DNA from: Candidatus Mediterraneibacter caccogallinarum | GTDB taxonomy: Bacteria > Bacillota > Clostridia > Lachnospirales > Lachnospiraceae | Direction: 5' to 3' | Assembly (NCBI GenBank): GCA_019120245.1 | Contig: DWVK01000055.1 | Span: 18,869 to 82,868 of the forward strand | Length of the DNA stretch: 64,000 bases | Part shown: one piece after another, positions 5,509 through 58,834 of the stretch | Layout of the letters: each line of letters starts with the position of its first letter | How positions within the stretch are numbered: position 1 is the first letter of the stretch | Position numbers and translations under genes: made by a program | Notes under the pieces: model-generated | The model's database searches: none | Seen by the model: the letters and a program-made list of their open reading frames with translations, nothing else | What the model was told of the DNA's origin: nothing

Positions 5509-6828
5509 ATGGGACTTTTGACATTTAAAGGCGGGATTCATCCTGATGATGGAAAACGTTTTTCGAAAGACCAGGCAGTGAAGCCCCTTTTACCAAAAGG
5601 AGATATGGTTTACCCTCTCTCCCAGCATATAGGTGCCCCTGCCAACCCTGTTGTTAAAAAAGGAGATCATGTCCTGAAAGGACAGATGATCGCCGATGCA
5701 GGCGGATTTGTTTCCGCGCCGATCTATTCTTCCGTGTCCGGAACAGTGAAAGGGCTGGAACAGAGATTTAATCCCACGGGCACAAAGGTCGAGTGTATTG
5801 TGATCGAGAATGACGGAGAGTATGCTGAAGCCGAGTATGCCCCTGTAAAACCGCTGGATGAACTGACCAGAGAGGAGATCCTTGACATGATCGCCCGGGC
5901 AGGTATTGTCGGTATGGGAGGAGCGGGTTTCCCGACCCGCGTGAAGCTTTCACCGAAGGAGCCGGATAAGATCGACTATATCATTGCCAACTGCGCGGAG
6001 TGTGAGCCGTACATCACGGCAGATTACAGAAGGATGCTCGAGAATACAGATGAACTGGTCAGCGGAATGCGGGTTGTGCTTTCTCTGTTCCCAAATGCAA
6101 AGGGAATTTTTGCGGTCGAGGACAACAAAAAGGACTGTATCGAGAAACTGAACCAGGCAGTGGCTGATGAGCCGCGCATGGACGTGAAAGCGCTGGTCAC
6201 AAAATATCCGCAGGGTGCTGAACGTCAGCTCATCTATGCCGTGACAAAGCGGGCAATAAATTCGTCTATGCTCCCCGCTGATGCGGGATGTATCGTGGAT
6301 AATGTGGAGACCCTGATCGGCATACATAACGCAGTCATCTGCGGAAGGCCTCTGACAGAGCGGATCGTTACAGTGAGCGGAGATGCAGTGGAATCTCCGG
6401 GTAATTTCCGTGTGCTTCTTGGAACGAACCACAGAGAGCTGATCGATGCTGCCGGAGGATTCAAGGCTGAGCCGGAGAAGCTGATCTCGGGCGGTCCGAT
6501 GATGGGATTTGCCATGGTGACGCTGGACGCGCCGGTGACGAAGACTTCTTCGGCAATCCTCGCCTTCAAAGAGGATGTAGTATCCAGAAGTCCGGAGACG
6601 GCATGCATCAACTGCGGCAGATGCGTGGAGGTCTGCCCGAGCAGGATCATTCCGTCCAGGCTGGCAGATTATGCGAGAAGACAGGATGAGGAATCCTTTG
6701 TTGCGATGAACGGACTGGAGTGCGTGGAGTGCGGTTCCTGCAGCTACGTCTGTCCGGCAAAACGCCAGTTAAAGCAGGCGATCGGAGCGATGAGAAAGAT
6801 CGCTCTTGCAAATAAAAGGAAAAAATGA
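5509..6828 (+). CDS. rnfC: Rnf complex subunit C
   Basis: FKGGIHP start, GIVGMGGAGFPT, NCAECEPY, two CxxCxxCxxxCP clusters. Confidence 0.97.
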   Translation: MGLLTFKGGIHPDDGKRFSKDQAVKPLLPKGDMVYPLSQHIGAPANPVVKKGDHVLKGQMIADAGGFVSAPIYSSVSGTVKGLEQRFNPTGTKVECIVIENDGEYAEAEYAPVKPLDELTREEILDMIARAGIVGMGGAGFPTRVKLSPKEPDKIDYIIANCAECEPYITADYRRMLENTDELVSGMRVVLSLFPNAKGIFAVEDNKKDCIEKLNQAVADEPRMDVKALVTKYPQGAERQLIYAVTKRAINSSMLPADAGCIVDNVETLIGIHNAVICGRPLTERIVTVSGDAVESPGNFRVLLGTNHRELIDAAGGFKAEPEKLISGGPMMGFAMVTLDAPVTKTSSAILAFKEDVVSRSPETACINCGRCVEVCPSRIIPSRLADYARRQDEESFVAMNGLECVECGSCSYVCPAKRQLKQAIGAMRKIALANKRKK

Positions 6829-6844
6829 GAGAGGTGACTGAAAA

Positions 6845-7777
6845 GTGAACGAGAATTATAAAGTATCGGCATCGCCGCATATCCGCGACAGGATAAAGAG
6901 CAGCAATATCATGCTCCTGGTCGTGATCGCGCTGCTCCCGGCGACCTTTTTCGGAATCTGGAATTTCCGTCACGAGAACGCGTGGATCCTCGTCGTCGTG
7001 ACGACAGCATCTGCGGTGCTTGCCGAGTACATCTATGAAAAACTGATGCACAAACCTATCACGATCAATGATTTCAGTGCGGTCGTCACAGGCCTTCTTC
7101 TGGCTCTGAACCTTCCGCCTACACTCCCATGGTGGATGGGAGTCCTCGGCGCTGTGTTTGCCATTGTGGTAGTCAAACAGCTTTTTGGAGGCCTGGGACA
7201 GAATTTTATGAATCCTGCTCTGGCGGCCAGATGTTTCCTTCTGATCTCATTTGCGGGAAATATGACGTACTTTGTATATGATGGTGTGACCGGTCCGACT
7301 CCTCTGGCAGAGCTGAAGGCAGGGGAAGCGGTGAACACGATGGATATGCTGCTGGGCAATATCCGAGGAACGATCGGTGAGACTTCAGTCATCGCCATTA
7401 TGATCGGAGCCATGTTCCTCCTCCTTATGGGGGTGATCGATCTGACGATCCCGGGGTCCTACCTTGTGTCATTCGTTGTATTTATCGTGATCTTCGGCGG
7501 ACATGGACTTGATCCACAGTATATCACTGCGCATCTGTGCGGAGGCGGACTGATGCTGGGAGCATGGTTCATGGCAACGGATTATGTGACTTCGCCGATC
7601 ACGACAAAAGGAAGGATCGTGTACGGCGTCTGTATGGGACTTCTGACAGGTCTGTTCAGACTTTTCGGAGGATCCGCAGAGGGAGTTTCCTATGCGATCA
7701 TCATCAGCAACCTTTTGGTTCCTCTGATCGAAAAAGTCACTCTTCCAAAACCATTCGGCAAAGGAGGAGAAAAGTAA
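6845..7777 (+). CDS. rnfD: Rnf complex subunit D
   Basis: SPH start, KQLFGGLGQNFMNPA, ATDYVTSP, EGVSYAI; FMN-site-like DGVTGPTPL. Confidence 0.96.
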   Translation: MNENYKVSASPHIRDRIKSSNIMLLVVIALLPATFFGIWNFRHENAWILVVVTTASAVLAEYIYEKLMHKPITINDFSAVVTGLLLALNLPPTLPWWMGVLGAVFAIVVVKQLFGGLGQNFMNPALAARCFLLISFAGNMTYFVYDGVTGPTPLAELKAGEAVNTMDMLLGNIRGTIGETSVIAIMIGAMFLLLMGVIDLTIPGSYLVSFVVFIVIFGGHGLDPQYITAHLCGGGLMLGAWFMATDYVTSPITTKGRIVYGVCMGLLTGLFRLFGGSAEGVSYAIIISNLLVPLIEKVTLPKPFGKGGEK

Positions 7778-8391
7778 TGAATAAGATTGTAAAAAATACA
7801 TTGATCCTGACAGCGATCACGGTGGTATCGGGACTTCTTCTCGGCGTTGTCTACGGCATTACAAAAGAACCTATCGCGGAAGCGCAGGAGAATACAAAGC
7901 AGGAGGCATACAGGTCCGTGCTGTCTGATGCCTCGTCTTTTGAGACGATGGAAGATTTTGACGCGGCGGACGCGGCTTCGATTCTGGAAGAAAATGGGTA
8001 TTCCTCTGATGAGATCACGGAAGTGGCGGAGGGGATCGACGACAGCGGCGAGACAGTCGGATATGTTGTCAACGTGATGTCCCACGAAGCCTATGACGGA
8101 GATCTGGAAGTTTCTGTCGGGATTGCGGCGGACGGAACGGTCAAGGGAATCGAGATGCTTTCCATCAGTGAGACTGCTGGTCTCGGAATGAAGGCGGATG
8201 AGGCCGAGTTCAAGGATCAGTTCAAGGATAAAAATGTAGAGAAGTTTACATATACAAAATCCGGCGAGAGCGGAGACGATAAGATCGACGCCATCAGCGG
8301 TGCGACGATCACGACAAATGCCGTGACCAATGCGGTGGACTCTGCGCTGGTATATTTTCAGAATGAGTTAGGAGGCGTTGTCAATGAATAA
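7777..8391 (+). CDS. rnfG: Rnf complex subunit G (FMN-binding)
   Basis: N-terminal TM helix, ETAGLG, flavinylation motif DAISGAT; ATG overlaps rnfD stop. Confidence 0.95.
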   Translation: MNKIVKNTLILTAITVVSGLLLGVVYGITKEPIAEAQENTKQEAYRSVLSDASSFETMEDFDAADAASILEENGYSSDEITEVAEGIDDSGETVGYVVNVMSHEAYDGDLEVSVGIAADGTVKGIEMLSISETAGLGMKADEAEFKDQFKDKNVEKFTYTKSGESGDDKIDAISGATITTNAVTNAVDSALVYFQNELGGVVNE

Positions 8392-9106
8392 GTGCACAGA
8401 GCGGATTTTCAACGGCCTTGTCAAGGAAAATCCGACGTTTGTCCTGATGCTCGGCATGTGTCCGACGCTTGCGGTCACTACGTCCGCGGTCAACGGAATC
8501 GGCATGGGACTTTCTACGACGGCCGTGCTCGTTATGTCGAACATGCTGATCTCCATGCTGAGAAAGATCATCCCGGATTCTGTCAGAATGCCGGCGTTCA
8601 TCGTTGTCGTGGCGTCTTTCGTCACAATTGTGGATTTCCTTCTGGAAGGCTTTGTCCCGAGTCTCTATGATTCTCTCGGACTGTACATTCCTCTGATCGT
8701 CGTGAACTGTATCATCCTCGGAAGGGCAGAGAGCTACGCATCGAAAAATCCGGTCCTCCCGTCAATCTTCGACGGACTTGGAATGGGACTGGGATTTACA
8801 GTGGGTCTTACCTGCATCGGTATCGTAAGAGAGCTGATCGGATCGGGAATGATCTTCGGCATGCAGGTCCTCCCGGATTCTTATGTCCCGATAACGATCT
8901 TCATCCTTGCACCGGGCGCTTTCTTCGTACTCGCGTGCCTTGTGGCGCTTCAGAATAAGATCAAGAGAAATCTTGCGAAGAAGGGCAGAAAGGTGCCGGA
9001 GAGCGCCGGATGCGGCGAGGGATGCGCCGCCTGCGGAAACCGTGCGGCGTGCAGCGGACACATGTTTCTCGATGTGACAGAGAAAAAAGAGAATGGACAG
9101 GAATAG
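8384..9106 (+). CDS. rnfE: Rnf complex subunit E
   Basis: LGMCPTLAVT, IPLIVVNCIILGRAE. Confidence 0.96.
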   Translation: MNKCTERIFNGLVKENPTFVLMLGMCPTLAVTTSAVNGIGMGLSTTAVLVMSNMLISMLRKIIPDSVRMPAFIVVVASFVTIVDFLLEGFVPSLYDSLGLYIPLIVVNCIILGRAESYASKNPVLPSIFDGLGMGLGFTVGLTCIGIVRELIGSGMIFGMQVLPDSYVPITIFILAPGAFFVLACLVALQNKIKRNLAKKGRKVPESAGCGEGCAACGNRAACSGHMFLDVTEKKENGQE

Positions 9107-9118
9107 GAGGAGACTGAT

Positions 9119-9721
9119 ATGGGAGAACAAATACAGAATCTTTTGCTGATCGCGGTCGGCTCCGCGTTTGTAAATAATGTGGTGCTCAGCCAGTTTCTTG
9201 GAATCTGTCCCTTCCTGGGAGTGTCAAAGAATGTAAAGACTGCTGCCGGCATGGGAAGCGCCGTGGTGTTTGTCATCACCATCGCTTCTTTTGTCACGGG
9301 ACTGATCTACAAGTTCATACTTGGAAACCCGAATATCATGGGCGGAGAGCTGGACTATCTGAATACGATCGTGTTCATCCTCGTGATCGCGGCGCTGGTA
9401 CAGTTTGTGGAGATGGTGCTGAAGAAATCCATGCCTGCTCTCTACAATGCGCTTGGAGTGTACCTTCCCCTGATCACGACGAACTGTGCGGTGCTCGGTG
9501 TGGCGCTGACGAACGTGCAGGAGGGATATGACATCCTCACCGGAGTCGTCAACGGTTTTGCCACAGCGGCGGGATTCCTCGTATCTATCGTACTGATGGC
9601 GGGGATCCGTGAGAAGATCGAGCACAATGACATTACGGAATCATTTCAGGGGACGCCGATCGTCCTTGTGACGGCAGGTCTGATGGCGATCGCGTTCTTC
9701 GGATTTTCAGGATTGATATAG
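9119..9721 (+). CDS. rnfA: Rnf complex subunit A
   Basis: NNVVLSQFLGICPFLG, YLPLITTNCAVLG. Confidence 0.96.
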   Translation: MGEQIQNLLLIAVGSAFVNNVVLSQFLGICPFLGVSKNVKTAAGMGSAVVFVITIASFVTGLIYKFILGNPNIMGGELDYLNTIVFILVIAALVQFVEMVLKKSMPALYNALGVYLPLITTNCAVLGVALTNVQEGYDILTGVVNGFATAAGFLVSIVLMAGIREKIEHNDITESFQGTPIVLVTAGLMAIAFFGFSGLI

Positions 9722-9734
9722 GAGGACAGAAGAT

Positions 9735-10532
9735 ATGGGTATTACCGGAATTATTTTAGCTGCCGTGATAGTCGGCGGCACAGGACTTTTTATCGGCGTC
9801 TTCCTTGGAATTGCCGGGAAAAAATTTGCTGTGGAAACGGATGAGAGAGAGGATGCGATCCTCGAGGTGCTCCCCGGAAACAACTGCGGCGGATGCGGAT
9901 ATGCCGGGTGCTCCGGCCTTGCCGCGGCGATCGTGGCAGGCGAGGCAGAGGTCGGCGGCTGTCCCGTCGGCGGCGCTCCTGTCGCAGAGCAGATTGGAAA
10001 GATCATGGGCGTCGATGCCGGTGCGCAGGAGAGAAAGACCGCATTTGTAAAATGCGGAGGAACCTGTGAGAAGGCAAAGAATGAATATGAATACTATGGC
10101 ATCAAAGACTGTGTCATGGCAGCCCAGATGCAGGACGGAGGAGCAAAAGGATGTGCTTACGGCTGCCTCGGCTACGGCTCCTGTGTAAAGGCGTGTCCGT
10201 TTGATGCGATCCATATTGTGGACGGCATTGCGGTTGTGGACAGGGAAGCGTGCAAAGCATGCGGAAAATGTGTGTCCGTATGTCCGAAACATCTGATCGA
10301 GCTGATCCCGTACAAGCAGCAGACCTTTGTACAGTGCAGCTCGAATGAGAAGGGAAAAGCGCTGATGTCGGTGTGCGAAGTCGGCTGTATCGGATGCCGC
10401 CTGTGCGAAAAGAACTGCGAGGCAGGGGCGGTCACGGTCAACAATTTCCTGGCACATATCGATGCAGATAAATGCACCGGCTGCGGTGTGTGCGCGGAAA
10501 AGTGCCCGCGGAAGATCATAAAATGCATATAA
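9735..10532 (+). CDS. rnfB: Rnf complex subunit B (polyferredoxin)
   Basis: LPGNNCGGCGYAGC and several CxxCxxCxxxCP motifs; last gene of the rnfCDGEAB order. Confidence 0.96.
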   Translation: MGITGIILAAVIVGGTGLFIGVFLGIAGKKFAVETDEREDAILEVLPGNNCGGCGYAGCSGLAAAIVAGEAEVGGCPVGGAPVAEQIGKIMGVDAGAQERKTAFVKCGGTCEKAKNEYEYYGIKDCVMAAQMQDGGAKGCAYGCLGYGSCVKACPFDAIHIVDGIAVVDREACKACGKCVSVCPKHLIELIPYKQQTFVQCSSNEKGKALMSVCEVGCIGCRLCEKNCEAGAVTVNNFLAHIDADKCTGCGVCAEKCPRKIIKCI

Positions 10533-10607: not shown

Positions 10608-11591
10608 TCAGTCCAGAGTCACGCCGGATGTTTCATGTATCTCATAATCATCCGTGACAAATACTGCCTCCACACCGCTCATGCTCTCGATCAGATCCAT
10701 CCCTTTCTCAAGTCCCAGCGCGTAGCAGGTGGTGCTGAGGGCATCGCCGTCAACGGAGCTGTCGGATATGATGGTGACCTGATACAGATCATTCTGGATC
10801 GGATAGCCGGTTCGGGGATCAAGGATATGGTGATAGATGGTTCCGTCTTTTTCAAAATACCGCTCATAATTGCCGGAAGTCACAACAGACTGATCAGTGA
10901 TCTCAAGAGCGGCGAGAACGGTCCCCGTCTGATCAAACGGTCTCTGCAGGCCGATCCTGAACGGCGTGCCGTCACAGCGGTCCCCAACGGCAAGCATATT
11001 TCCTCCCAGGTTGATAAGGGCATGCCAGATTCCTTCGCTTTTCAGATAATCCTTCAGCCGGTCGGCAATGTAGCCCTTGGCGATACCTCCCAGATCGATC
11101 TTCGCATCCGGATCGGTCAGTGTGACGGTGTTCCCATCCACCTTTACCTTCCGGTAGTCGATGTGGGTGACAGCTTCTGCCAGAGCAGCTGCGTCGGGGA
11201 TGCTCTTATCCTCGTTGTCCGTAAAGTTCCAGAGGCTGCTGGCGGAGGCGATGGTAATATCAAACATACCTCCGGAGATATCACCGTATTCAAGACCGGC
11301 TTTTATCAGATCCGCGGTTTCCTCCGAGACCTCCGTCGGTGTTCCTGCCGCACGGTTGATGGCAGAGACCTCACTGTCCTCGATCGTCGGGCTCAGCATC
11401 TGTTCATAATGCGCACAGATCTCATCGCAGTGGTCAAGGATATCCTGATCTCCGCCCCAGACCTGTACTTCCACAACTGTATCGAAGTAAACTCCTGTCA
11501 TTGTCAGAGGCTCTGACCGGGGCGGGGACGAACAGCCGGCAGCGGCCAGCGCAATGGATACTGCGGTAAAAAGTGCTGCGGTACGTTTCAT
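10608..11591 (-). CDS. apbE: FAD:protein FMN transferase (ApbE) lipoprotein
   Basis: Lipobox LAAAGC, IDLGGIAKGY, LINLGGN, VVTSGNYERYF, HHILDPRTGYP, DGDALST. Confidence 0.95.
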   Translation of the reverse strand: MKRTAALFTAVSIALAAAGCSSPPRSEPLTMTGVYFDTVVEVQVWGGDQDILDHCDEICAHYEQMLSPTIEDSEVSAINRAAGTPTEVSEETADLIKAGLEYGDISGGMFDITIASASSLWNFTDNEDKSIPDAAALAEAVTHIDYRKVKVDGNTVTLTDPDAKIDLGGIAKGYIADRLKDYLKSEGIWHALINLGGNMLAVGDRCDGTPFRIGLQRPFDQTGTVLAALEITDQSVVTSGNYERYFEKDGTIYHHILDPRTGYPIQNDLYQVTIISDSSVDGDALSTTCYALGLEKGMDLIESMSGVEAVFVTDDYEIHETSGVTLD

Positions 11592-11624: not shown

Positions 11625-11705
11625 ATTATATCGGTTTTCCGGGAAATGCACAACGGGAAAAGAATCGAACGTGTGGTTGCATATTGCAGGAGGCTGTGCT
11701 ATGAT
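11625..11705. promoter_or_regulatory. Divergent sigma-A promoters for apbE (-) and nusG-II/gx (+)
   Basis: Minus strand TTGTGC-17-TATAAT (11653-11625); plus strand TTGCAT-17-TATGAT with TGn extension (11677-11705). Confidence 0.6.
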
Positions 11706-11727
11706 ATTGGACGAAAGAGGTATTGAA

Positions 11728-12084
11728 ATGAAGAAAAACGACTGGATTCTTGGGGGCGGGATCGTTCTGGCTGCCGGCATGATTCTCCTTTTTCAGCTGC
11801 TGAGGGACAGCGGCGGAGCAAAAGAGGTGACTATATCTGTAGATGGAGATGTGTTCGGCACCTACAGCCTTGAGGAAGATCAGACGGTGGAGATCGGCGG
11901 CACCAACCGGCTCGTCATCGAGGATGGAACAGCCCGGATGGAATGGGCTGACTGTCCGGATCAGATCTGCGTGAACCACAGACCTGTCTCCAGGAATGGC
12001 GAGAGCATCATCTGCCTGCCGAATGAGGTGGTCGTCTCGGTCAAAGGCGGAGAAGAGGTGGAGCTGGACGGAGTTGTTCAGTAG
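11728..12084 (+). CDS. NusG domain II-containing protein (DUF1312)
   Basis: N-terminal TM helix, then ADCPDQICVNH...ESIICLPNEVVV signature. Confidence 0.9.
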   Translation: MKKNDWILGGGIVLAAGMILLFQLLRDSGGAKEVTISVDGDVFGTYSLEEDQTVEIGGTNRLVIEDGTARMEWADCPDQICVNHRPVSRNGESIICLPNEVVVSVKGGEEVELDGVVQ

Positions 12085-12120
12085 CCAATAGATTCAGCAG
12101 AAGAGAGGACGACGGATAAA

Positions 12121-48707: not shown

Positions 48708-48715
48708 ACCTCCTG

Positions 48716-49819: not shown

Positions 49820-50027
49820 CTTTGATTTCCTCCAGAAGCTGCAGATTCTCCAGCGCTTCTTTTTCCGACATTTTTTCGATGGCGAATCCGGCATGTACCA
49901 TGACATATTCGCCGGGGGCCGCATCCTGTATGAAATCGATCCGGACAGACTGAGTCAGCCCGCCGGCCTCGCAGTCTGCGGTTTTTCCATTGATCTGTTT
50001 AATCTTCATTGGCATTGCTAAACACAT
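49809..50027 (-). CDS. hypC: Hydrogenase maturation chaperone HypC
   Basis: N-terminal MCLAMP (Cys2), VMVHAGFAI. Confidence 0.96.
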   Translation of the reverse strand: MCLAMPMKIKQINGKTADCEAGGLTQSVRIDFIQDAAPGEYVMVHAGFAIEKMSEKEALENLQLLEEIKDAL

Positions 50028-52329
50028 GATTCATACTCCTTTTCTTCTGGGCAATCGCAAGCTGTCCGAGGCAGATCCCCTCGTCGTTAGGGGAGACCTG
50101 TCTGTGGGGATAAACTGTAAATCCTTTTTCCTCCAGCAGAGAAGTGATCCCTGTCAGAAGAAAGCGGTTCTGGAATACTCCGCCGGAAAGGACGACGGGG
50201 AGTTCCTTTTTGTTCAGGGCAGTGCATTGATCCAGCGCCATGCAGCACATTGTTGACATAAAACGAAGTGCAATGGCGCCGCGGTCCCTGTGCTCCTTCA
50301 GGTCACTTAGAATCTCCGAGATCATCGGACGGGTATCAAATACGCGGAGTCCGTTCTCCTCCGTCAGATAAAATCGGCGGGAATAGGAAAGCCCGTAAAG
50401 GGATTCCGTATCTTCACCGGGCGCTTCCACAGGAGACAGGGCTTCTGTCAGAGCAGCGCCTTCTCCCTCATAAGAAACTTCCGATCTCTGCAGAAGAAGA
50501 GCACATATTCCGTCAAAGAGGCGTCCAGCGCTGCTGGCAGGAGGAGAAAACTCCGGATTCAGCAGAGAGCGGAGCATACGGCATTTTTCCGGTGGAAGAG
50601 GAACGCAGGAGAAATCTTCCGTCCCGGTGTCGCAGACAAGGGCCAGAGCGATCCGTCCGATCTCGCGGACCGCCCGGTCTCCTCCGGGAAGGAGGACCGG
50701 ACGGATGGAGCCTCTGCGCAGAAAGTTTCCAAAGTCCCCTTCCAGGAATTCACCACCCCAGATGGTGCCGTCTGTGCCGAGACCTGTCCCGTCCCAGACG
50801 ATACCGAAACAGGGACCGTTCAATCCGTTATCCGCCATGCAGGATGCCATGTGAGCCCAATGATGCTGCACGCGGATCAGCGGCACACCCTCGGCGGCCG
50901 CGGCTCCTGCGGCTTCCTGTGTGGACAGGTAATCCGGATGGAGGTCGCAGACATAGAGACGGGGCTGCAGGCGGAATAATTCGCGGTAAGTCCCGAGGGC
51001 ATCCTTATAGTGCTGAAGTGTCTCACCGTTTTTCAAGTCTCCGATATGGGGACTCAAAAAAGCCTGAGAGCCCCGTCCCAGGGCAAAAGAAGCCTTCTGT
51101 TCCGCACCCATGGCGAAAATGCCGTCCACATCCGAATCAAGACAGACAGGCAGGGGAACATATCCGCGGCTCCTGCGGAAAAAATAAGGTCTGCCCCGAA
51201 ATTCCGCCGCAAGAGAATCGTCACAGCGGTTCTGGATCGGACGGTCGTGCAGAAGGAAGCCGTCTGCGATCCCCTGCAGATGGGAGAGCGCCTCGGAATT
51301 GTCTGTGATCACAGGACATCCGGGAACGTTTCCACTGGTCATGACAAGGGAGTCCGGTCCTCCGTATACTCCGTCAAGGAGGAGCATATGGAGCGGCGTG
51401 TAAGGGAGCATGACGCCAAGCCTCGGGCTGAAGCTGAGTTCTGGGAAAGCATCCCTGTCCTTCTTGGCAAGCAGGATGATGGGGCGGGCGGGACTGGAGA
51501 GAAGCTCTTCTTCTTTTGGCGTGATCCGGCAGATGCGCCGGATCGCTCCCGTCGAGCGGCACATCAGCGCCAGCGGCTTTTCTGCCCGGTGTTTTCTGGC
51601 ACGAAGCCGTTTTACTGCAGCGGGATTTAAAGCGTCACACGCCAGATGGATCCCGCCCAGCCCTTTGACTGCGAGGATCCCGCCTGCCGCCAGCAGCTGC
51701 TGGGAAGCACGGAACGGATCGCCCTCCGACTCTGTGAGCGATGTACCGTCCACATAGAATGCGCGGGGACCACATGCGGGACAGCAGTCCGGCTGAGCGT
51801 GATATCTGCGGTCGCTGATGTCGGAATACTCTTCATGGCAGTCACCGCACATGACAAACCTCTCCATAGTGGTCCGTTTTCTGTCATAGGGCAGACTGCG
51901 GATGATCGTATAACGGGGGCCGCAGTTCGTGCAGTTGATAAAAGGGTAGCGGTATCTCCGGTCAGAGGGATCATACAGCTCTGCCGCACATTCCGGACAG
52001 ACGGCAAGATCAGGAGAGACAAGAGTACTTCCCGGCAGGATCCGGCTCTCTCTGATCTCGAATCTGTCATAGTCTCTGTCATCTTCTTCCGGCACGGCAT
52101 CGATCTTCTCGATTACAGCCATGGGCGGAGCCGAGGACCTGACAGCGTTGAGAAACTGTTCCAGGCACCGGCTGCTGCCGGATGCGACTCCCTCCAGTCC
52201 GCGGGATGTATTCCTCACCCATCCGCAGATATGATATTCTTCCGCAAGCCGGTGCAGGAACGGGCGGAAGCCGACCCCCTGGACTACTCCCTCGATGGTA
52301 ATGCGGAGGCACTTGCGGGAAGCGCTCAT
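49999..52329 (-). CDS. hypF: Carbamoyltransferase HypF
   Basis: VQGVGFRPF acylphosphatase domain, two Zn fingers (CPEC...NCTNCGPR; CGDC...CCPACGP), KGLGG, DLHPDY, QHHWAH, DGTG. Confidence 0.97.
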   Translation of the reverse strand: MSASRKCLRITIEGVVQGVGFRPFLHRLAEEYHICGWVRNTSRGLEGVASGSSRCLEQFLNAVRSSAPPMAVIEKIDAVPEEDDRDYDRFEIRESRILPGSTLVSPDLAVCPECAAELYDPSDRRYRYPFINCTNCGPRYTIIRSLPYDRKRTTMERFVMCGDCHEEYSDISDRRYHAQPDCCPACGPRAFYVDGTSLTESEGDPFRASQQLLAAGGILAVKGLGGIHLACDALNPAAVKRLRARKHRAEKPLALMCRSTGAIRRICRITPKEEELLSSPARPIILLAKKDRDAFPELSFSPRLGVMLPYTPLHMLLLDGVYGGPDSLVMTSGNVPGCPVITDNSEALSHLQGIADGFLLHDRPIQNRCDDSLAAEFRGRPYFFRRSRGYVPLPVCLDSDVDGIFAMGAEQKASFALGRGSQAFLSPHIGDLKNGETLQHYKDALGTYRELFRLQPRLYVCDLHPDYLSTQEAAGAAAAEGVPLIRVQHHWAHMASCMADNGLNGPCFGIVWDGTGLGTDGTIWGGEFLEGDFGNFLRRGSIRPVLLPGGDRAVREIGRIALALVCDTGTEDFSCVPLPPEKCRMLRSLLNPEFSPPASSAGRLFDGICALLLQRSEVSYEGEGAALTEALSPVEAPGEDTESLYGLSYSRRFYLTEENGLRVFDTRPMISEILSDLKEHRDRGAIALRFMSTMCCMALDQCTALNKKELPVVLSGGVFQNRFLLTGITSLLEEKGFTVYPHRQVSPNDEGICLGQLAIAQKKRSMNHVFSNANED

Positions 52330-53475: not shown

Positions 53476-53557
53476 TGATATAGACAATATTTTTTGGCTA
53501 AAACAGAGTATCAATCAAAGTATTGTACAAAAAAATGACAGAAAGGACGGGCAGTTT

Positions 53558-55453
53558 ATGACAATAATACTATTTTTGATTGGTATTCCGGCAGTGCTTG
53601 CGGTAATATTTCCCTTTTTGCACAATCAGCGCATAAGAGGGTATGTAGTGTACACGGGCGCCGGGATCGTGATGCTGACAACGGTTGTGTTCATCGCTCA
53701 GTGGATAGGGAACGGCGCGGAAACGATGATGCTCTATCCGTCAACAGAATTTGTGGATCATCTGATGACGGTGGGGGATCTTTTTCTTATGTGCCTGATC
53801 GTGTATCTGAGCATTAAGTATGGGAAGATCCTTCCAATCCTGCTCTCCGTCGGACAGACGGCTTTGGTACTCTACATAGAATTTACGACGGAACTCCCGG
53901 AAGCCCCGCACATGACAGTGGACTGGCTGACGATCCTGATGTGCCTTATCATTGCGTTCATCGGAGGATTTATCTGTATCTATACGGTAGGTTATATGAA
54001 GGGGTATCACAGGCATCATGAGGATGTACAGGACAGACAGCCGTTTTTCTTTTCCATGCTGTTTCTGTTCCTTGCGGCCATGTTCGGCCTTGTCCTGTCA
54101 CAGAACCTGATCTGGATGTATTTCTTCTGGGAGGTCACCAGCGTGATCTCATTCCTGATGATCGGATATACACGCTCGGACGAGGCTGTCTCCAACAGTT
54201 TTATGGCACTGTGGATGAACCTTCTGGGCGGCTGCGGATTTGCAGTTGCGATCGCGTGGATGGCGAAGATGGGAGGTTCCGTCCAGCTCCTTGACGTGGT
54301 CGCGGCAGGAGCTCAGCTGCCTCTGTTCTGTCTGTCTCTGGCAGGACTTACGAAGTCGGCCCAGCTTCCGTTCTCATCCTGGCTTGTCGGAGCCATGGTG
54401 GCGCCGACGCCTTCCAGCGCGCTGCTCCACAGCGCCACGATGGTGAAGGCGGGCGTTTATCTGCTGATCCGCATCTCGCCTGCCCTGGAGGGCAATCTGA
54501 CCGGGATCATCGTATCCAGTATCGGCGGACTGACCTTTATCATGGCAAGTATGATGGCCATCGCACAGAATGACGGAAAGAAGGTACTTGCATTTTCCAC
54601 GATCTCGAATCTCGGACTGATCGTCGGCTGCGCCGGAATCGGTGTAGAGGAGACCGTCTGGGGCGCCGTGTTCCTGATGATCTTCCATTCCGTGAGCAAG
54701 TCCATGCTGTTCCAGTCTGTGGGTGCGGCAGAGAATACACTCGGATCCAGAGATATCGAGGATATGCACGGCCTGATCATCAAGGTCCCGAAACTGGCAT
54801 ATATCATGGGGATCGGGATAGCAGGGATGTACCTTGCCCCCTTTGGAATGCTGATCTCCAAGTGGGTGGCGCTTAGAGCTTTTGTAGATTCAGGGAACTT
54901 CGTCCTTGTTCTTTTCATCGCATACGGAAGCGCGACAACAATGTTTTACTGGACCAAGTGGCTGGCGAAGCTGATTTCCTATCATGTTCCGAGAGAGAGC
55001 GTGCAGGATGTCACGCGGAAGGATGAGTACATATCCATGTTTTTCCACGCCGTGGTCATGATCCTGCTCTGTCTGCTCCTTCCGCTTATCGCAAAATGGC
55101 TGGTGAACCCGATCGTGAAAGTACTTTTCGGAAATTCAAAGGATGTGCTCTCCATGAGCGTGCTCGCCACAATGGCGATCATGCTTGTGTCGGTATTCAT
55201 CGTGCCGGCGGTCATGTTTTTTGTGAGCAGGGCCTCCCGGAGAGAACTTGTCCCGATCTATATGAACGGGATCAATGAAGGTGACAACCGTTTCTTCACG
55301 AACAGCTTCGGAGAAAAGGAACATCTGTATCTGAGCAACTGGTATCTGCGCTTTGAATTCGGGCGGCGGCATCTGCGGATCCCGTCGATCTTGATCGCAG
55401 CCGCAGTCCTTGTCCTCGGATTCTGTCTTGTGATAGGAGGGGTGAATATCTGA
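53558..55453 (+). CDS. echA: Energy-converting hydrogenase subunit A (NuoL/MrpA-like antiporter subunit)
   Basis: FFWEVTS, KSAQLPF, AMVAPTPSSALLHSATMVKAG, KKVLAFST, FHSVSK. Confidence 0.92.
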   Translation: MTIILFLIGIPAVLAVIFPFLHNQRIRGYVVYTGAGIVMLTTVVFIAQWIGNGAETMMLYPSTEFVDHLMTVGDLFLMCLIVYLSIKYGKILPILLSVGQTALVLYIEFTTELPEAPHMTVDWLTILMCLIIAFIGGFICIYTVGYMKGYHRHHEDVQDRQPFFFSMLFLFLAAMFGLVLSQNLIWMYFFWEVTSVISFLMIGYTRSDEAVSNSFMALWMNLLGGCGFAVAIAWMAKMGGSVQLLDVVAAGAQLPLFCLSLAGLTKSAQLPFSSWLVGAMVAPTPSSALLHSATMVKAGVYLLIRISPALEGNLTGIIVSSIGGLTFIMASMMAIAQNDGKKVLAFSTISNLGLIVGCAGIGVEETVWGAVFLMIFHSVSKSMLFQSVGAAENTLGSRDIEDMHGLIIKVPKLAYIMGIGIAGMYLAPFGMLISKWVALRAFVDSGNFVLVLFIAYGSATTMFYWTKWLAKLISYHVPRESVQDVTRKDEYISMFFHAVVMILLCLLLPLIAKWLVNPIVKVLFGNSKDVLSMSVLATMAIMLVSVFIVPAVMFFVSRASRRELVPIYMNGINEGDNRFFTNSFGEKEHLYLSNWYLRFEFGRRHLRIPSILIAAAVLVLGFCLVIGGVNI

Positions 55454-56313
55454 TGAATGTCTGTTTTGTAATCGCATACTTACTTTTTGCTCCCCTGCTC
55501 GGGGGACTCCTCGACGGCGTGGATCGGATCATCAGCGCCCGGATGCAGCGGCGCAGAGGTCCCAGTATCCTGCAGCCGTTCTATGACCTTGGGAAATTGT
55601 TCTCAAAGGAACTGATCGCGGTAAACAACGTCCAGTTCCTTCTGAACCTCAGCTATCTTGTGATCCTGGTGATCGCGGGTGCGCTCCTGTTCGCAGGCGC
55701 CGATCTGCTGATGACACTGTTCATCCTCAGCACGGCTGATATGTTCCTGATCATGGCGGCATCCAGCGATTCATCGCCTTATGCCAATATGGGCGCGAGC
55801 AGAGAGATGCTCCAGATGATGGCATATGAGCCGCTGACCCTTCTGATCGCGGTAGGATTCTATCTGACAGAAGGCTCCTTCCAGGTATCAGCGATCATTG
55901 ACGCTCCGGTCAGCGCGATCCTCTGGATGCCCGGACTCTTTGTCGGATTTATGTATACGGCGGCGATCAAACTGAGAAAATCGCCTTTTGATCTGTCAAC
56001 AAGCCATCACGCCCATCAGGAGATGGTAAAGGGGATCACAACAGAGATGTCAGGGCCGGCGCTGGCGATCATGAATATCGCGGAGTACTATGAGCTTGTC
56101 CTTCTCCTTGGCATTTTCTGCCTGTTCTTTATCAACAGCACCTGGTGGAGCTGGATCGTGGCGGTCATTGCCTGCGGACTGGTGTTTTTCATCGAGACTC
56201 TCTGGGATAATGTGAGTGCCAGAGTGAAGTGGAAATCACTGCTCTACAGCTGCTGGATCGTTACTCTGGTGGCGGGCGGAGTCAATATTCTGATTCTGAT
56301 GCTGATCAAATAG
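55453..56313 (+). CDS. echB: Energy-converting hydrogenase subunit B (NuoH-like)
   Basis: DRIISARMQRRRGP, QPFYDLGKL, PFDL, HQEMVKG. Confidence 0.92.
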   Translation: MNVCFVIAYLLFAPLLGGLLDGVDRIISARMQRRRGPSILQPFYDLGKLFSKELIAVNNVQFLLNLSYLVILVIAGALLFAGADLLMTLFILSTADMFLIMAASSDSSPYANMGASREMLQMMAYEPLTLLIAVGFYLTEGSFQVSAIIDAPVSAILWMPGLFVGFMYTAAIKLRKSPFDLSTSHHAHQEMVKGITTEMSGPALAIMNIAEYYELVLLLGIFCLFFINSTWWSWIVAVIACGLVFFIETLWDNVSARVKWKSLLYSCWIVTLVAGGVNILILMLIK

Positions 56314-56330
56314 GCAGGAGGTAGATCGTT

Positions 56331-56768
56331 ATGAATAAAGTGTCAAAATCACCATGGCTGCTCCACTATGATGCGAGCAGCTGCAATGGATGCGATATTG
56401 AAGTGCTCGACTGTCTGACGCCAAAGTACGATATCGAGCGTTTCGGAATCATCAATACAGGGGATCCCTTCCAGGCGGATATCCTGCTCATAACAGGAGG
56501 CGTCAACAGCCAGACCGAGAGCGTGGTAAAGCAGCTGTACAGCCAGATGCCGGAGCCGAAGGTTGTCGTGGCTGTCGGGATCTGTGCCTGTACCGGAGGG
56601 ATTTTCAAAGAGTGTTATAATATCAGGGGCGGGATCGACACCGTGATCCCTGTGGACGTATATGTCCCGGGATGCGCGGCACGTCCGGAATCCATTATCG
56701 ACGGAGTAGTCAAAGCACTGGCGGTACTGGACGAGAAGCAGAAGGCGATGAAGGAAGAGCGGAGGTGA
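56331..56768 (+). CDS. echC: Energy-converting hydrogenase small subunit C (NuoB-like)
   Basis: SCNGCDIE, ADILLITG, GICACTGGIF, VYVPGC. Confidence 0.94.
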   Translation: MNKVSKSPWLLHYDASSCNGCDIEVLDCLTPKYDIERFGIINTGDPFQADILLITGGVNSQTESVVKQLYSQMPEPKVVVAVGICACTGGIFKECYNIRGGIDTVIPVDVYVPGCAARPESIIDGVVKALAVLDEKQKAMKEERR

Positions 56769-56773
56769 CGGAG

Positions 56774-57127
56774 ATGGACTACAAGAGCGAGATAAAGAAG
56801 ATCACCAGAGCACAGTTTTTCCACGCGATCGTACAGATGAAAGCAGACAACTGGCGCCTGGTCCAGATCTGTGCGGTCTCTCTTGACCACGGATATGAGA
56901 TGAGCTATTCATTCTGCGGAGGCAGGGACTACCGGATGGTGACACTGCGGCTTGAAGTGGGGGAGGACGAGGAGATCGCGAGCATTACCCAGATCTATCC
57001 ATGCGCTTCCCTGCAGGAAAATGAAGCGGCAGAGCTGTTCGGTGTGAAGATAAGAAATATCGATCCGGATTATCATGACAAGCTGTATCGGATCGACGCT
57101 GTCGCACCATTTAAGAAGAAGGAGTAG
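56774..57127 (+). CDS. echD: Energy-converting hydrogenase subunit D (NuoC-like)
   Basis: WRLVQICA, YSF, SITQIYPCASLQENEAAELFG; position between echC and echE. Confidence 0.88.
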   Translation: MDYKSEIKKITRAQFFHAIVQMKADNWRLVQICAVSLDHGYEMSYSFCGGRDYRMVTLRLEVGEDEEIASITQIYPCASLQENEAAELFGVKIRNIDPDYHDKLYRIDAVAPFKKKE

Positions 57128-57131
57128 AACT

Positions 57132-58211
57132 ATGGCTAAGAGAAGTATCGTACCTTTCGGTCCGCAGCATCCTGTACTGCCGGAGCCTGTACATCTGGAT
57201 CTGGTACTGGAGGATGAGACGGTGGTCGGCGCGATCCCGAGCATCGGCTTTGTTCACAGGGGACTGGAAAAACTGGTAGAAAAAAGAGATTATAAACAAT
57301 ATGTCTATATTGCCGAGCGAGTCTGCGGGATCTGCAGCTGCGGCCACGGGCTGGGCTACTGCGAATCCGTGGAACAGGTGATGGGGATTGAAGTGCCTGA
57401 CAGGGCAAGATATCTGAGAACGATCTGGATGGAGATGAGCCGTGTGCACAGTCATCTGCTCTGGCTCGGACTTCTGGCAGACGCGATGGGATTTGAAAGT
57501 CTGTACATGGAGAGCTGGAGACTCAGAGAAAAGATCCTCGATATGTTTGATGAGACGACAGGTGGAAGGCTCATCCATTCAGTGAACTGTGTCGGCGGCG
57601 TACAGAAAGATATGGACAGCACGATGCTGGAGCATATCCTGCGCGCGGTGGATGAAATCCAGGGGGAGATGAAGCCTCTTGTGGAGACATTCATGCAGGA
57701 TTACACCGTACAGAGCCGTCTGAAAGGGACGGGGATCCTTACGAGAGACAGCGCCATCGAACTCGGCGCGGTGGGACCTGTCCTGCGTGCGTGCGGTGAA
57801 CCGTACGATGCACGGCGCCTGGGATATGCGGCATACAGGGATCTTGCCGTAGAACCTATTACGGAGAAAGACGGCGATTCTTTCGCCCGCTGTAAGGTGA
57901 GGCTGAGAGAGCTCTTCCAGGCGTTTGATCTGATCCGTGAAGCAATCGGAAAGATCCCCGGGGGAGAGATCAGTGTTCCGGTAAAGGGCAATCCTTCCGG
58001 AGAATATTTTATGCGGATCGAGCAGCCCAGGGGAGAGGCGATCTACTACGTCAAGGGGAACGGGACAAAATATCTGGACCGCTTCCGCATGAGGACGCCG
58101 ACAACAAGCAACCTCTCTCCGCTGGTTGAGATGCTCAAGGGCTGCCAGCTGTCTGACGTGCCCCTTCTGATCCTGACCATTGATCCGTGCATCAGCTGCA
58201 CAGAGAGGTAG
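57132..58211 (+). CDS. echE: [NiFe] hydrogenase large subunit EchE (group 4)
   Basis: PFGPQHP, GFVHRGLEK, L1 ERVCGIC, EQPRGE, L2 DPCISC ending TER-stop. Confidence 0.95.
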   Translation: MAKRSIVPFGPQHPVLPEPVHLDLVLEDETVVGAIPSIGFVHRGLEKLVEKRDYKQYVYIAERVCGICSCGHGLGYCESVEQVMGIEVPDRARYLRTIWMEMSRVHSHLLWLGLLADAMGFESLYMESWRLREKILDMFDETTGGRLIHSVNCVGGVQKDMDSTMLEHILRAVDEIQGEMKPLVETFMQDYTVQSRLKGTGILTRDSAIELGAVGPVLRACGEPYDARRLGYAAYRDLAVEPITEKDGDSFARCKVRLRELFQAFDLIREAIGKIPGGEISVPVKGNPSGEYFMRIEQPRGEAIYYVKGNGTKYLDRFRMRTPTTSNLSPLVEMLKGCQLSDVPLLILTIDPCISCTER

Positions 58212-58273
58212 GAAACGACTGGAATAAATGAGATCACACCGCTTTCAGCGGAGAAACGGAGCAGTGGCAAGGT

Positions 58274-58834
58274 ATGGAAGATAAGACGAGAGTATTTACA
58301 TTAGCGGGAAGAGTCCTGAGGAATCTCTTCCGAAAGCCGGCAACAGTGCAGTACCCGTTTCAGCCGGCAGAATATCCGGAGCGGATGCGGGGACATGTGG
58401 AGATACAGATCAGCAGCTGTATCTGCTGCGGGCTCTGCGCGAGATCCTGTCCTTCGACAGCGATCAAGGTAGACAGAGCGGCAGGAACATGGACGATCGA
58501 CCGGTTCGACTGTGTGCAGTGCGGCAGCTGCGTTGCCGCCTGCCCGAAGAAATGTCTGAGCATGGCAAAGGGGTATACAGAACCGGGAGTCGCAAAAAAG
58601 AGCGAGACATTTATCAAACCGAAGGAAGAACAGCCGGCGGCTGCCGCTTCCGGAGGGGGAAAACCGTCCGTTGACGTTGAGAAATGCGTCTACTGTACGC
58701 TCTGTGCAAAGAAGTGCCCACAGGAGGCGATCCTGGTGGACCGGAAAGAAAAGATCTGGAAACTGGACGAAGAAAAATGTGTGCAGTGCGGGATCTGTGC
58801 ATCGGCATGTCCGAAACATGCGATCGAGATGTAG
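58274..58834 (+). CDS. echF: EchF-like ferredoxin subunit with four CxxCxxCxxxCP motifs
   Basis: LFRKPATVQYP...RGH start; CICCGLC, CVQCGSC, CVYCTLC, CVQCGIC. Confidence 0.9.
   Translation: MEDKTRVFTLAGRVLRNLFRKPATVQYPFQPAEYPERMRGHVEIQISSCICCGLCARSCPSTAIKVDRAAGTWTIDRFDCVQCGSCVAACPKKCLSMAKGYTEPGVAKKSETFIKPKEEQPAAAASGGGKPSVDVEKCVYCTLCAKKCPQEAILVDRKEKIWKLDEEKCVQCGICASACPKHAIEM

What the first reader, a model, noticed from the sequence alone, without database searches (positions are those of the whole stretch)
5509..58834. Both Rnf and Ech ferredoxin-driven ion pumps in one genome segment
Seen: complete rnfCDGEAB (5.5-10.5 kb) and complete echABCDEF with hypA-F (47.7-58.8 kb). Established: Rnf couples ferredoxin to NAD+ and Ech couples ferredoxin to H+/H2; dual Rnf+Ech respiration has been described in rumen Butyrivibrio/Pseudobutyrivibrio. 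Inference: this organism may run two chemiosmotic circuits (possibly Na+ and H+) during fermentation and be an H2 producer with raised ATP yield.
Basis: partly seen in the sequence, partly recalled or inferred. Interest (0 to 1): 0.66.

Follow-up and report, generated by a model that had tools for sequence, protein, structure and literature searches.

The report
Separate Rnf and Ech ion pumps
This stretch of a gut Mediterraneibacter-like (Lachnospiraceae) chromosome does encode an intact Rnf complex and an intact Ech [NiFe] hydrogenase with its maturation genes, but they are two unlinked loci, and having both is common and already described in this bacterial family, so the finding is real but ordinary.

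Summary
rnfCDGEAB (5509-10532, +) is complete. apbE sits next to it. hypABFCDE (53325-47688, -) lies back to back with echABCDEF (53558-58834, +). Every cofactor-binding motif I could check is present, and all the genes are under strong purifying selection (dN/dS 0.02-0.14). Chicken-gut metatranscriptome assemblies cover both loci.

The 37 kb between the two loci holds only housekeeping genes (ruvAB, ftsW, recG, the his operon and others). In a related isolate, rnf and ech lie about 630 kb apart, so finding them in "one genome segment" is incidental.

The hyp-ech cluster is conserved as a unit in at least 79 species-level genomes of gut Clostridia. Three named isolates that carry it also carry a close RnfC. 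Published work already reports Rnf plus Ech in butyrivibrios, in unclassified rumen Lachnospiraceae and in Catenibacillus. The two-circuit mechanism has been shown in Pseudobutyrivibrio ruminis.

The sequence cannot show which ion each pump moves, which way Ech runs, or whether two ATP synthases exist; none of these can be read from this window.

One small new point: EchF here carries an extra C-terminal 2x[4Fe-4S] ferredoxin domain. This domain is present in 55 and absent in 30 of 85 related loci.

Verdict: a new member of a known kind, of low interest.

The parts
5509..6828 (+). rnfC: NADH/FMN-binding subunit with 2x[4Fe-4S] (motifs at C366 and C405)
   Evidence: TIGR01945, 505 bits; motifs found; the identical protein is on many public contigs
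6845..7777 (+). rnfD: membrane flavoprotein. The FMN-acceptor Thr is kept, in a variant motif DGVTGPTPL
   Evidence: TIGR01946; aligns end to end with RnfD of 7zc6 and 9eri
7777..8391 (+). rnfG: FMN-binding subunit with the SGAT flavinylation motif (T177)
   Evidence: TIGR01947; motif and alignment to 7zc6_G and 9eri_G
8384..9106 (+). rnfE: membrane subunit. Two Cys (MCPT, VNC) stand in the motifs where A. woodii RnfE has its [2Fe-2S] ligands
   Evidence: TIGR01948/NF009070; sequence; ligand positions from PMC11889175; matched by motif, not by alignment
9119..9721 (+). rnfA: membrane subunit. Two Cys (ICPF, TNC) stand in the motifs where A. woodii RnfA has its [2Fe-2S] ligands; the Asn before the second Cys is kept
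   Evidence: TIGR01943, 249 bits; matched by motif, not by alignment
9735..10532 (+). rnfB: membrane-anchored polyferredoxin, the ferredoxin entry site
   Evidence: TIGR01944, 105 bits against a cut-off of 68.7; NF005503 251.5 bits, just under its cut-off of 252; 4Fe-4S motifs
10608..11591 (-). apbE: FMN transferase that would flavinylate RnfG and RnfD
   Evidence: PF02424, E = 1.4e-90; same position in related contigs
11701..12615 (+). NusG_II-domain gene (11701-12084) and Hpre_diP_synt_I gene (12121-12615). They sit next to apbE; any link to Rnf is uncertain
   Evidence: Pfam hits; gene calls on related contigs
47688..48698 (-). hypE
   Evidence: TIGR02124, 376 bits
48716..49819 (-). hypD
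   Evidence: TIGR00075, 407 bits
49809..50027 (-). hypC (72 aa, N-terminal MCLAMP)
   Evidence: PF01455, E = 1.5e-25; sequence
49999..52329 (-). hypF carbamoyltransferase
   Evidence: TIGR00143, 717 bits
52326..52982 (-). hypB nickel-insertion GTPase
   Evidence: TIGR00073, 233 bits
52942..53325 (-). hypA nickel metallochaperone
   Evidence: TIGR00100, 93 bits
53326..53557 (.). AT-rich intergenic region between the divergent hyp and ech genes; presumably holds both promoters
   Evidence: Sequence. Only weak promoter-like matches, no more than in shuffled sequence
53558..55453 (+). echA: antiporter-like (NuoL/MrpA-type) membrane subunit
   Evidence: Proton_antipo_M/N domains; NCBIfam Mrp/NuoL/Hyf hits; PDB MrpA and ND5
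55453..56313 (+). echB: NuoH-like membrane subunit
   Evidence: PF00146; NuoH hits
56331..56768 (+). echC: hydrogenase small subunit (NuoB-like). Cys at CNGC, GICACTGG and PGCA for one [4Fe-4S]
   Evidence: NF005012, 137 bits; sequence
56774..57127 (+). echD: NuoC-like hydrophilic subunit
   Evidence: PF00329, E = 3e-9
57132..58211 (+). echE: [NiFe] large subunit. L1 motif RVCGICSCGH; L2 motif DPCISCTER ends the protein, so there is no C-terminal extension
   Evidence: Sequence; MbhL 6cfw_L E = 1.7e-72, aligned to the last residue; homologues named 'ech hydrogenase subunit E' by JGI
58274..58834 (+). echF: NuoI-like 2x[4Fe-4S] subunit plus an extra C-terminal 2x[4Fe-4S] ferredoxin domain (aa ~130-186)
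   Evidence: Four CxxCxxCxxxC motifs; split alignment to MbhN/HycF and to RnfB/PorD; long and short forms in relatives

Best explanation
The window is core chromosome of a gut Mediterraneibacter-like member of the Lachnospiraceae. It carries two independent, functional membrane complexes that oxidise ferredoxin.

1. Rnf (RnfCDGEAB, flavinylated by the adjacent ApbE) passes electrons from reduced ferredoxin to NAD+ and pumps Na+ or H+ outward.
2. A six-subunit Ech-type (group 4) [NiFe] hydrogenase, matured by the neighbouring HypABFCDE, passes ferredoxin electrons to protons. It makes H2 and most likely pumps H+.

Together they would split the ferredoxin electrons produced in fermentation between NADH regeneration and H2 release. 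Both would add to the ion-motive force used for ATP synthesis, as shown for Pseudobutyrivibrio ruminis.

What is shown: gene identity, completeness, cofactor motifs, conservation, purifying selection, and presence in metatranscriptome assemblies.

What is inferred: enzyme activities, the H2-evolving direction, the ion each pump moves, and any gain in ATP.

The closeness of the two loci in this window has no functional meaning.
For: Family assignments:
- All six Rnf subunits, and HypA, B, D, E and F, score above curated cut-offs. HypC, EchD and ApbE are confirmed by Pfam.

Ech motifs and architecture:
- The [NiFe] ligand motifs L1 and L2 are present, and EchE ends at the L2 motif as MbhL does.
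- The Cys ligands of EchC and EchF are present.
- The set of six subunits fits the definition of Ech given in PMC9356269.

Rnf motifs:
- RnfG has SGAT, RnfD keeps its acceptor Thr, and RnfA and RnfE have Cys in the motifs of the [2Fe-2S] ligands.

Conservation and selection:
- dN/dS is 0.017-0.134 for ech, 0.05-0.14 for hyp and 0.036-0.078 for rnf, measured against orthologues.
- The hyp-ech cluster is conserved as a unit in 79 species-level genomes.
- It is present in 10 of 10 contig contexts that carry the identical HisFIE protein.
- Close RnfC and EchE homologues occur in the same named organisms: Clostridium sp. Marseille-P3244 (same 2.6-Mb contig), Ruminococcus turbiniformis CLA-AA-H200 (same strain), and M. 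glycyrrhizinilyticus (same species name).

Expression:
- Chicken-gut metatranscriptome assemblies hold 85-94% of the sampled words of the ech region. They cover rnf, hyp and ech at depths similar to or above the neighbouring genes. The S1 gene is 10-50 times higher, which shows that these libraries are RNA-like.

Precedent:
- PMC4478896, PMC11187502, PMC11170127.
Against: - No biochemical data exist for this organism.
- Ion specificity cannot be read from the sequence.
- The window holds no ATP synthase, PFOR, Bcd-Etf or other hydrogenase, so the metabolic setting is unknown.
- Contig depth is a poor measure of expression, and DNA carry-over in the metatranscriptomes is not excluded.
- RnfD has Pro in place of the usual Ala in its flavinylation motif. 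This could affect covalent FMN attachment.
- Ech enzymes are reversible (PMC9356269).
Confidence: 0.8

Rival explanations
1. One circuit, used as a redox valve. Both pumps move the same ion. Rnf can run backwards, using the ion gradient to reduce ferredoxin with NADH. Ech then oxidises that ferredoxin to H2 and restores the gradient. The pair would act mainly as a membrane-coupled route from NADH to H2 at low H2 pressure, not as two additive energy-conserving circuits using different ions.
For: Rnf and Ech are both reversible (PMC11889175; PMC9356269). Both H+- and Na+-dependent Rnf complexes are known, and purified T. kivui Ech2 pumps H+. Nothing in the window points to Na+.
Against: In the only organism tested with both pumps (P. 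ruminis), Rnf used Na+, Ech is taken to pump H+, and two ATP synthases were present (PMC11187502). The nearest solved Rnf relatives (C. tetanomorphum, A. woodii) are Na+ pumps, though similarity does not prove ion specificity.
Confidence: 0.3
2. Ech works mainly in the uptake direction. H2, which is abundant in the gut, would reduce ferredoxin at the expense of the ion gradient built by Rnf or an ATPase. This would feed reductive pathways, as in Methanosarcina barkeri or in acetogens.
For: Ech catalyses H2-dependent ferredoxin reduction in some methanogens and acetogens (PMC9356269). Some relatives that carry the cluster belong to genera that include hydrogen-using or acetogenic species; this last point rests on my own knowledge and was not tested here.
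Against: No Wood-Ljungdahl or other ferredoxin-consuming reductive genes lie next to the cluster or anywhere in the window. In fermentative Lachnospiraceae, Ech has been linked to H2 production (PMC4478896; PMC11170127).
Confidence: 0.12
3. Rnf and Ech form one functional or mobile unit: a co-regulated supercluster or an acquired island. That would explain why they share a segment.
For: They lie within 53 kb of each other on the same chromosome stretch. The same spacing recurs in independent assemblies of this species.
Against: - The intervening 37 kb is ordinary housekeeping: ruvAB, zapA, ftsW, a PBP, recG, GH36, SASP, rsmF, recU and the his operon.
- No mobile-element genes were seen.
- In Clostridium sp. 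Marseille-P3244 the two loci are about 630 kb apart on one contig.
- In most species the hyp-ech cluster sits in a different neighbourhood; only L009 and L022 share the his/rSAM flanks.
- GC content is only slightly higher over hyp.
Confidence: 0.03
4. The ech/hyp genes are silent or decaying remnants, and only Rnf is used.
For: One metagenome contig (L001) replaces hypCDE with a flavodoxin-like gene at a contig end.
Against: All 12 reading frames are intact with their ligand motifs. dN/dS is 0.02-0.14. The cluster is present in 10 of 10 contexts within the species. Metatranscriptome contigs cover ech at or above the depth of neighbouring genes.
Confidence: 0.03

Closest known systems
Rnf plus Ech of rumen butyrivibrios, especially Pseudobutyrivibrio ruminis (Hackmann & Firkins 2015, PMC4478896; Schoelmerich et al. 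2020 as summarised in PMC11187502)
   Same: Same family (Lachnospiraceae). Complete RnfABCDEG plus six-subunit EchABCDEF in one genome, with the same predicted roles (Fd:NAD+ and Fd:H+).
   Different: A different genus, Mediterraneibacter-like, from chicken and other gut samples, with about 52% GC. No biochemistry here. Two ATP synthases, Na+ dependence and the butyrate pathway are not shown. I could not compare EchF of the butyrivibrios with the long form found here.
Catenibacillus scindens Ech cluster next to hyp maturase genes, plus Rnf (PMC11170127)
   Same: A human-gut member of the Lachnospiraceae with a six-subunit Rnf and an Ech-type [NiFe] hydrogenase directly next to a six-gene hyp cluster. 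A Catenibacillus MAG EchE is 79% identical to the one in the window.
   Different: That description is genomic only. The neighbourhood and the EchF form were not compared.
Thermoanaerobacter kivui Ech2 (PMC9356269)
   Same: An energy-converting, ferredoxin-dependent [NiFe] hydrogenase with the same six-subunit core. It is the only purified Ech shown to pump H+.
   Different: [quoted passage not shown] The window enzyme has six subunits and five predicted clusters: one in EchC and four in EchF.
Pyrococcus furiosus MBH (6cfw) and E. coli formate hydrogenlyase (7z0s)
   Same: The closest solved structures for EchE (E = 1.7e-72 and 2.6e-67) and for the N-terminal half of EchF. They share the complex-I-like module.
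   Different: MBH has 14 subunits including an Mrp module. FHL is coupled to a formate dehydrogenase. Neither has the ferredoxin-domain extension on its NuoI-like subunit.
Rnf of Clostridium tetanomorphum (7zc6) and Acetobacterium woodii (9eri)
   Same: The best structural relatives of RnfD and RnfG (E = 4e-88 and 3e-25). Same subunit set and flavin sites; the Cys motifs of the [2Fe-2S] ligands are present.
   Different: RnfD has TGPT where these have TTAT. The ion specificity of the window enzyme is unknown.

Membership tests
Rnf complex (RnfABCDGE ferredoxin:NAD+ oxidoreductase) | All six subunits C, D, G, E, A and B encoded together | tested here: met
   Six adjacent genes, each above a curated NCBIfam cut-off; same gene calls on related contigs
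Rnf complex (RnfABCDGE ferredoxin:NAD+ oxidoreductase) | Covalent-FMN acceptor Thr in RnfG (SGAT) and in RnfD, with an ApbE flavin transferase available | tested here: met
   RnfG has SGAT at residues 174-177. The RnfD Thr aligns with that of 7zc6 and 9eri, but the motif is TGPT. apbE is adjacent. Actual flavinylation was not tested
Rnf complex (RnfABCDGE ferredoxin:NAD+ oxidoreductase) | Four Cys ligands of the intramembrane [2Fe-2S] cluster in RnfA and RnfE | tested here: met
   RnfA has ICPF and TNC; RnfE has MCPT and VNC. These are the motifs of C25/C113 (RnfA) and C25/C108 (RnfE) in A. woodii. I matched them by motif and position, not by a printed alignment
Rnf complex (RnfABCDGE ferredoxin:NAD+ oxidoreductase) | Fd:NAD+ oxidoreductase activity coupled to Na+ or H+ transport | not testable with these tools
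   Needs membranes or vesicles from an isolate
Ech-type energy-converting [NiFe] hydrogenase (group 4) | Six-subunit core: large and small hydrogenase subunits, two more hydrophilic subunits, two integral membrane subunits (PMC9356269) | tested here: met
   EchA-F have the expected domains
Ech-type energy-converting [NiFe] hydrogenase (group 4) | [NiFe]-binding CxxC pairs (L1 and L2) in the large subunit | tested here: met
   RVCGICSCGH and DPCISCTER, aligned with MbhL
Ech-type energy-converting [NiFe] hydrogenase (group 4) | Fe-S ligands in the small subunit and in the NuoI-like subunit | tested here: met
   EchC has CNGC, CAC and PGC. EchF has two core CxxCxxCxxxC motifs plus two extra ones
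Ech-type energy-converting [NiFe] hydrogenase (group 4) | Hyp maturation machinery available | tested here: met
   hypABFCDE are adjacent and intact. No endopeptidase gene is in the window, which fits the lack of a C-terminal extension on EchE
Ech-type energy-converting [NiFe] hydrogenase (group 4) | Assignment to subgroup 4e by a hydrogenase phylogeny (a HydDB-type classification) | not tested
   No classifier was available. JGI names homologues 'ech hydrogenase subunit E'
Ech-type energy-converting [NiFe] hydrogenase (group 4) | Ferredoxin-dependent H2 evolution coupled to ion transport | not testable with these tools
   Needs biochemistry
Two-circuit (Na+ and H+) fermentative respiration of the P. 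ruminis type | Both Rnf and Ech encoded in one genome | tested here: met
   Both are in the window and together on a 1.7-Mb public contig
Two-circuit (Na+ and H+) fermentative respiration of the P. ruminis type | The two pumps use different coupling ions | not testable with these tools
   No diagnostic sequence motif exists; the Na+ site is built mostly from backbone carbonyls
Two-circuit (Na+ and H+) fermentative respiration of the P. ruminis type | Two ATP synthases, one Na+-dependent and one H+-dependent | not tested
   No ATP synthase genes are in the window. The rest of the genome could not be reached with the tools
Two-circuit (Na+ and H+) fermentative respiration of the P. ruminis type | Ferredoxin-generating PFOR and Bcd-Etf (butyrate pathway) | not tested
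   Not in the window

The most novel reading that the evidence does not exclude
Ech combined with Rnf may be a widespread trait of gut Clostridia, possibly exchanged between lineages (Mediterraneibacter, Eisenbergiella, Gemmiger, Subdoligranulum, Faecalibacterium-like MAGs). The long EchF form, with its fused 2x[4Fe-4S] ferredoxin domain, would then act as a built-in electron-entry module that changes the donor or the wiring of the hydrogenase. In that case the presence or absence of this domain would mark functionally different Ech enzymes and different H2 and ATP budgets among close gut species, possibly with separate Na+ and H+ circuits.
Probability: 0.2. Interest if true: 0.45.

Novelty: new member of a known kind. 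Interest (0 to 1): 0.15.

Why it matters
If both pumps work as predicted, this common gut commensal gains extra ATP from fermentation and releases H2, which feeds methanogens, acetogens and sulfate reducers. That principle is already established for related Lachnospiraceae. What this window adds is one more lineage, evidence that the hyp-ech module is very widespread in gut Clostridia, and a variable ferredoxin-domain extension on EchF that may deserve a biochemical look. It does not open a new question.

Tried and rejected
1. Strain-variable island. The exact EchE occurs in far fewer collection blocks (57) than the exact RnfC (1068) or HisFIE (601). I tested whether hyp-ech is an accessory island within the species. 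It is not: all 10 contexts shown for the identical HisFIE carry hyp-ech next door. The difference in counts most likely reflects sequence variation in EchE.

2. Functional linkage of the two loci. Rejected, because the genes between them are housekeeping and the loci are about 630 kb apart in a relative.

3. Gene fission of EchF. I looked for a separate small ferredoxin gene downstream of short-form echF. None was found in 30 short-form loci.

4. Transcript ends. Two metatranscriptome contigs end at 58889 and 58891, just before a hairpin that follows echF. An assembler can also break at an inverted repeat, so I do not count this as evidence of a terminator. The simple terminator scan did not report that site.

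5. Ion specificity from sequence. The Na+ site in the A. woodii Rnf structure is made mainly of backbone carbonyls, so there is no motif to test.

6. RNA elements. There is no Rfam match and no tRNA in the 64 kb. In particular there is no riboswitch near hyp or ech.

7. A solved Ech structure. None was found by sequence search; MBH and FHL are the nearest.

8. One paper search failed because the phrase was too long.

Full report
**What is in the window**

The ORF list and the family scans show two separate gene sets.

At 5509-10532 on the + strand lie six adjacent genes. They score above the curated NCBIfam cut-offs for RnfC, D, G, E, A and B. Directly after rnfB, on the - strand, is an ApbE flavin transferase gene (10608-11591; PF02424, E = 1.4e-90). 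It is followed by a NusG_II-domain gene and an Hpre_diP_synt_I gene.

At 47688-53325 on the - strand lie hypE, hypD, hypC, hypF, hypB and hypA. All are recognised. They are transcribed away from six + strand genes at 53558-58834 that have the domain set of EchA-F. These are an antiporter-like subunit, a NuoH-like subunit, a NuoB-like small subunit, a NuoC-like subunit, a [NiFe] large subunit and a NuoI-like iron-sulfur subunit.

**Integrity of the parts**

Ech:
- EchE has both nickel-iron ligand motifs, RVCGICSCGH and DPCISCTER. It ends at the second motif, exactly as P. furiosus MbhL does in the alignment. No C-terminal processing protease is needed, and none is encoded nearby.
- EchC has the Cys residues for its cluster.
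- EchF has the two canonical 4Fe-4S motifs plus two extra ones.

Rnf:
- RnfG carries the SGAT flavinylation motif.
- RnfD keeps the acceptor threonine but reads TGPT where solved relatives read TTAT or TGAT. A related isolate has the same variant.
- RnfA and RnfE have Cys in the motifs where the A. woodii structure places the four ligands of the membrane [2Fe-2S] cluster. I matched these by motif and position, not by a printed alignment.

Selection: pairwise dN/dS against orthologues is 0.017-0.134 for ech, 0.05-0.14 for hyp and 0.036-0.078 for rnf. dS is high but mostly not saturated. These genes are maintained by selection.

**The organism and the spread of the genes**

The closest species-level genomes for EchE are an uncultured Mediterraneibacter sp. 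(89%) and Candidatus Mediterraneibacter faecigallinarum (88%). RnfC is 95% identical to that of M. glycyrrhizinilyticus. Identical proteins occur in many chicken-gut and other gut metagenome assemblies.

A scan of one genome per species returned 79 distinct loci that encode a relative of EchE at 62-89% identity (the tool returns at most 80 loci). Nearly all carry the same divergent hyp-ech arrangement. They come from:
- Lachnospiraceae and records labelled as related taxa: Mediterraneibacter, Eisenbergiella, Lachnoclostridium, Ruminococcus turbiniformis, Clostridium sp. Marseille-P3244.
- Oscillospiraceae: Gemmiger, Subdoligranulum and a Faecalibacterium-labelled MAG.

Only the two closest species share the window's flanks, with hisF-hisIE on one side and orf107, a radical SAM gene, DUF2344 and RNase G on the other. 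The cluster has therefore moved or been exchanged during evolution.

Within the species it is fixed: all 10 contexts shown for the identical HisFIE protein have hyp-ech next door.

**Is "one genome segment" meaningful?**

No. The 37 kb between rnfB and hypE encodes:
- ruvAB, zapA, a U32 peptidase, ftsW and a PBP;
- sporulation and envelope proteins, fakA and recG;
- an AraC regulator with a GH36 alpha-galactosidase, and a SASP;
- rRNA and tRNA modification enzymes, and recU;
- hisZ, hisG, hisD, hisB and hisF-hisIE.

The same layout appears on a 1.7-Mb NCBI contig and on independent ENA contigs, so it is genuine chromosome.

In Clostridium sp. Marseille-P3244, rnfC lies near 2.15 Mb and ech near 1.51 Mb of the same 2.6-Mb contig. 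The loci are functionally related only through their shared substrate, ferredoxin.

**Expression**

Fourteen RNA-type runs, mostly chicken-gut metatranscriptomes, hold 70-94% of the sampled words of the ech region.

Laying the contigs of four such runs on the window gives these depths:
- ech: about 5-37;
- hyp: about 1-29;
- rnf: about 10-32;
- ribosomal protein S1 gene: 60-690;
- some neighbouring genes: 0-3 in the most RNA-like run.

This fits moderate transcription of both loci in vivo. However, contig depth is crude and DNA carry-over is not excluded.

**Comparison with what is known**

- Hackmann and Firkins (PMC4478896) found complete Rnf plus Ech in 76% of rumen butyrivibrio genomes and in nine unclassified rumen Lachnospiraceae.
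- According to a later review (PMC11187502), the mechanism was confirmed in P. ruminis: a Na+-Rnf, Ech, and two ATP synthases that use different ions.
- The Catenibacillus genome paper (PMC11170127) describes the same pairing in human-gut Lachnospiraceae, with the same Ech-next-to-hyp layout.
- PMC9356269 defines the six-subunit Ech core and shows H+ pumping by a purified Ech.

The window fits all the gene-level criteria. It cannot be tested for different coupling ions, two ATP synthases, direction of catalysis or ATP yield. The A. woodii structure paper shows that the Rnf Na+ site is built mainly from backbone carbonyls, so I made no sequence-based call on the ion.

**What is mildly new**

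EchF in the window has 186 residues. Residues 11-104 align with MbhN and HycF. Residues ~130-186 form a second 2x[4Fe-4S] ferredoxin-like domain that aligns with the C-terminus of RnfB, with PorD and with HydB. An Ala/Gly/Pro linker joins the two parts.

Of 85 related loci, 55 have this long form. The other 30 have a short form of 109-163 aa with two motifs, often ending in a low-complexity tail. The two forms are interleaved among close species. The short-form loci have no separate small ferredoxin gene downstream.

With the extra domain, the complex would hold five predicted [4Fe-4S] clusters. I found no mention of this variant in the papers I read, but I did not search for it specifically.

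**Verdict**

This is another member of a known kind: Lachnospiraceae that carry both Rnf and Ech. The closeness of the two loci is incidental. Interest is low. The variable ferredoxin domain on EchF and the TGPT motif in RnfD are the only details that might repay a small follow-up.

Noticed in passing
window 58274-58834 (EchF aa ~105-186); related loci L009-L087: EchF carries an extra C-terminal 2x[4Fe-4S] ferredoxin domain behind an Ala/Gly/Pro linker. Of 85 related loci, 55 have this long form and 30 a short two-cluster form, and the two forms are interleaved among close species. The short-form loci have no separate ferredoxin gene downstream.
   Followed up: partly
window 6845-7777 (RnfD residues 146-154): The flavinylation motif reads DGVTGPTPL, with Pro where the solved Rnf complexes have Ala (TTAT/TGAT). 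The acceptor Thr is kept. Clostridium sp. Marseille-P3244 (L091) has the same variant.
   Followed up: partly
L001 1-605 (ENA ERZ27240196 k141_126716), breakpoint at window 50039: This contig is 100% identical to window 50039-64000. To the left of the last codons of hypF it continues into a 156-aa flavodoxin-like gene instead of hypC-hypD-hypE. It may be a strain variant or an assembly chimera at a contig end.
   Followed up: partly
window 58967-59290 (+): A 107-aa ORF with no Pfam match and one hydrophobic segment lies between echF and the radical SAM gene. It is conserved only in the window species and its two closest species, so it probably belongs to the downstream housekeeping block and not to ech.
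   Followed up: partly
window 10608-12615: apbE (- strand) is followed by a NusG_II-domain gene and an Hpre_diP_synt_I gene directly after rnfB. This looks like a flavin-transferase-associated trio. The role of the last two genes is unknown.
   Followed up: no
L088 1-1025 (just upstream of window position 1): Related contigs carry a 471-aa HMGL-like/PYC_OADA protein (oxaloacetate decarboxylase alpha-like or pyruvate carboxylase subunit B-like) just before the window starts. If it belongs to a membrane decarboxylase, it would point to a Na+ cycle.
   Followed up: no
window 26764-29986: An AraC-family regulator and a GH36 alpha-galactosidase are inserted among DNA-repair and sporulation genes. 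This suggests use of raffinose-family sugars.
   Followed up: no
window 4206-5306: The gene for the S1-domain protein is by far the most highly covered gene in the gut metatranscriptome assemblies (60-690 against about 10-30 for its neighbours). It serves as an internal sign that those libraries are RNA.
   Followed up: no
L055-L077 (Gemmiger, Subdoligranulum, Faecalibacterium-labelled MAG L065): Members of the Oscillospiraceae carry hyp-ech clusters with EchE 73-76% identical to the Lachnospiraceae one. This is high for different families and hints at horizontal exchange of the module.
   Followed up: no
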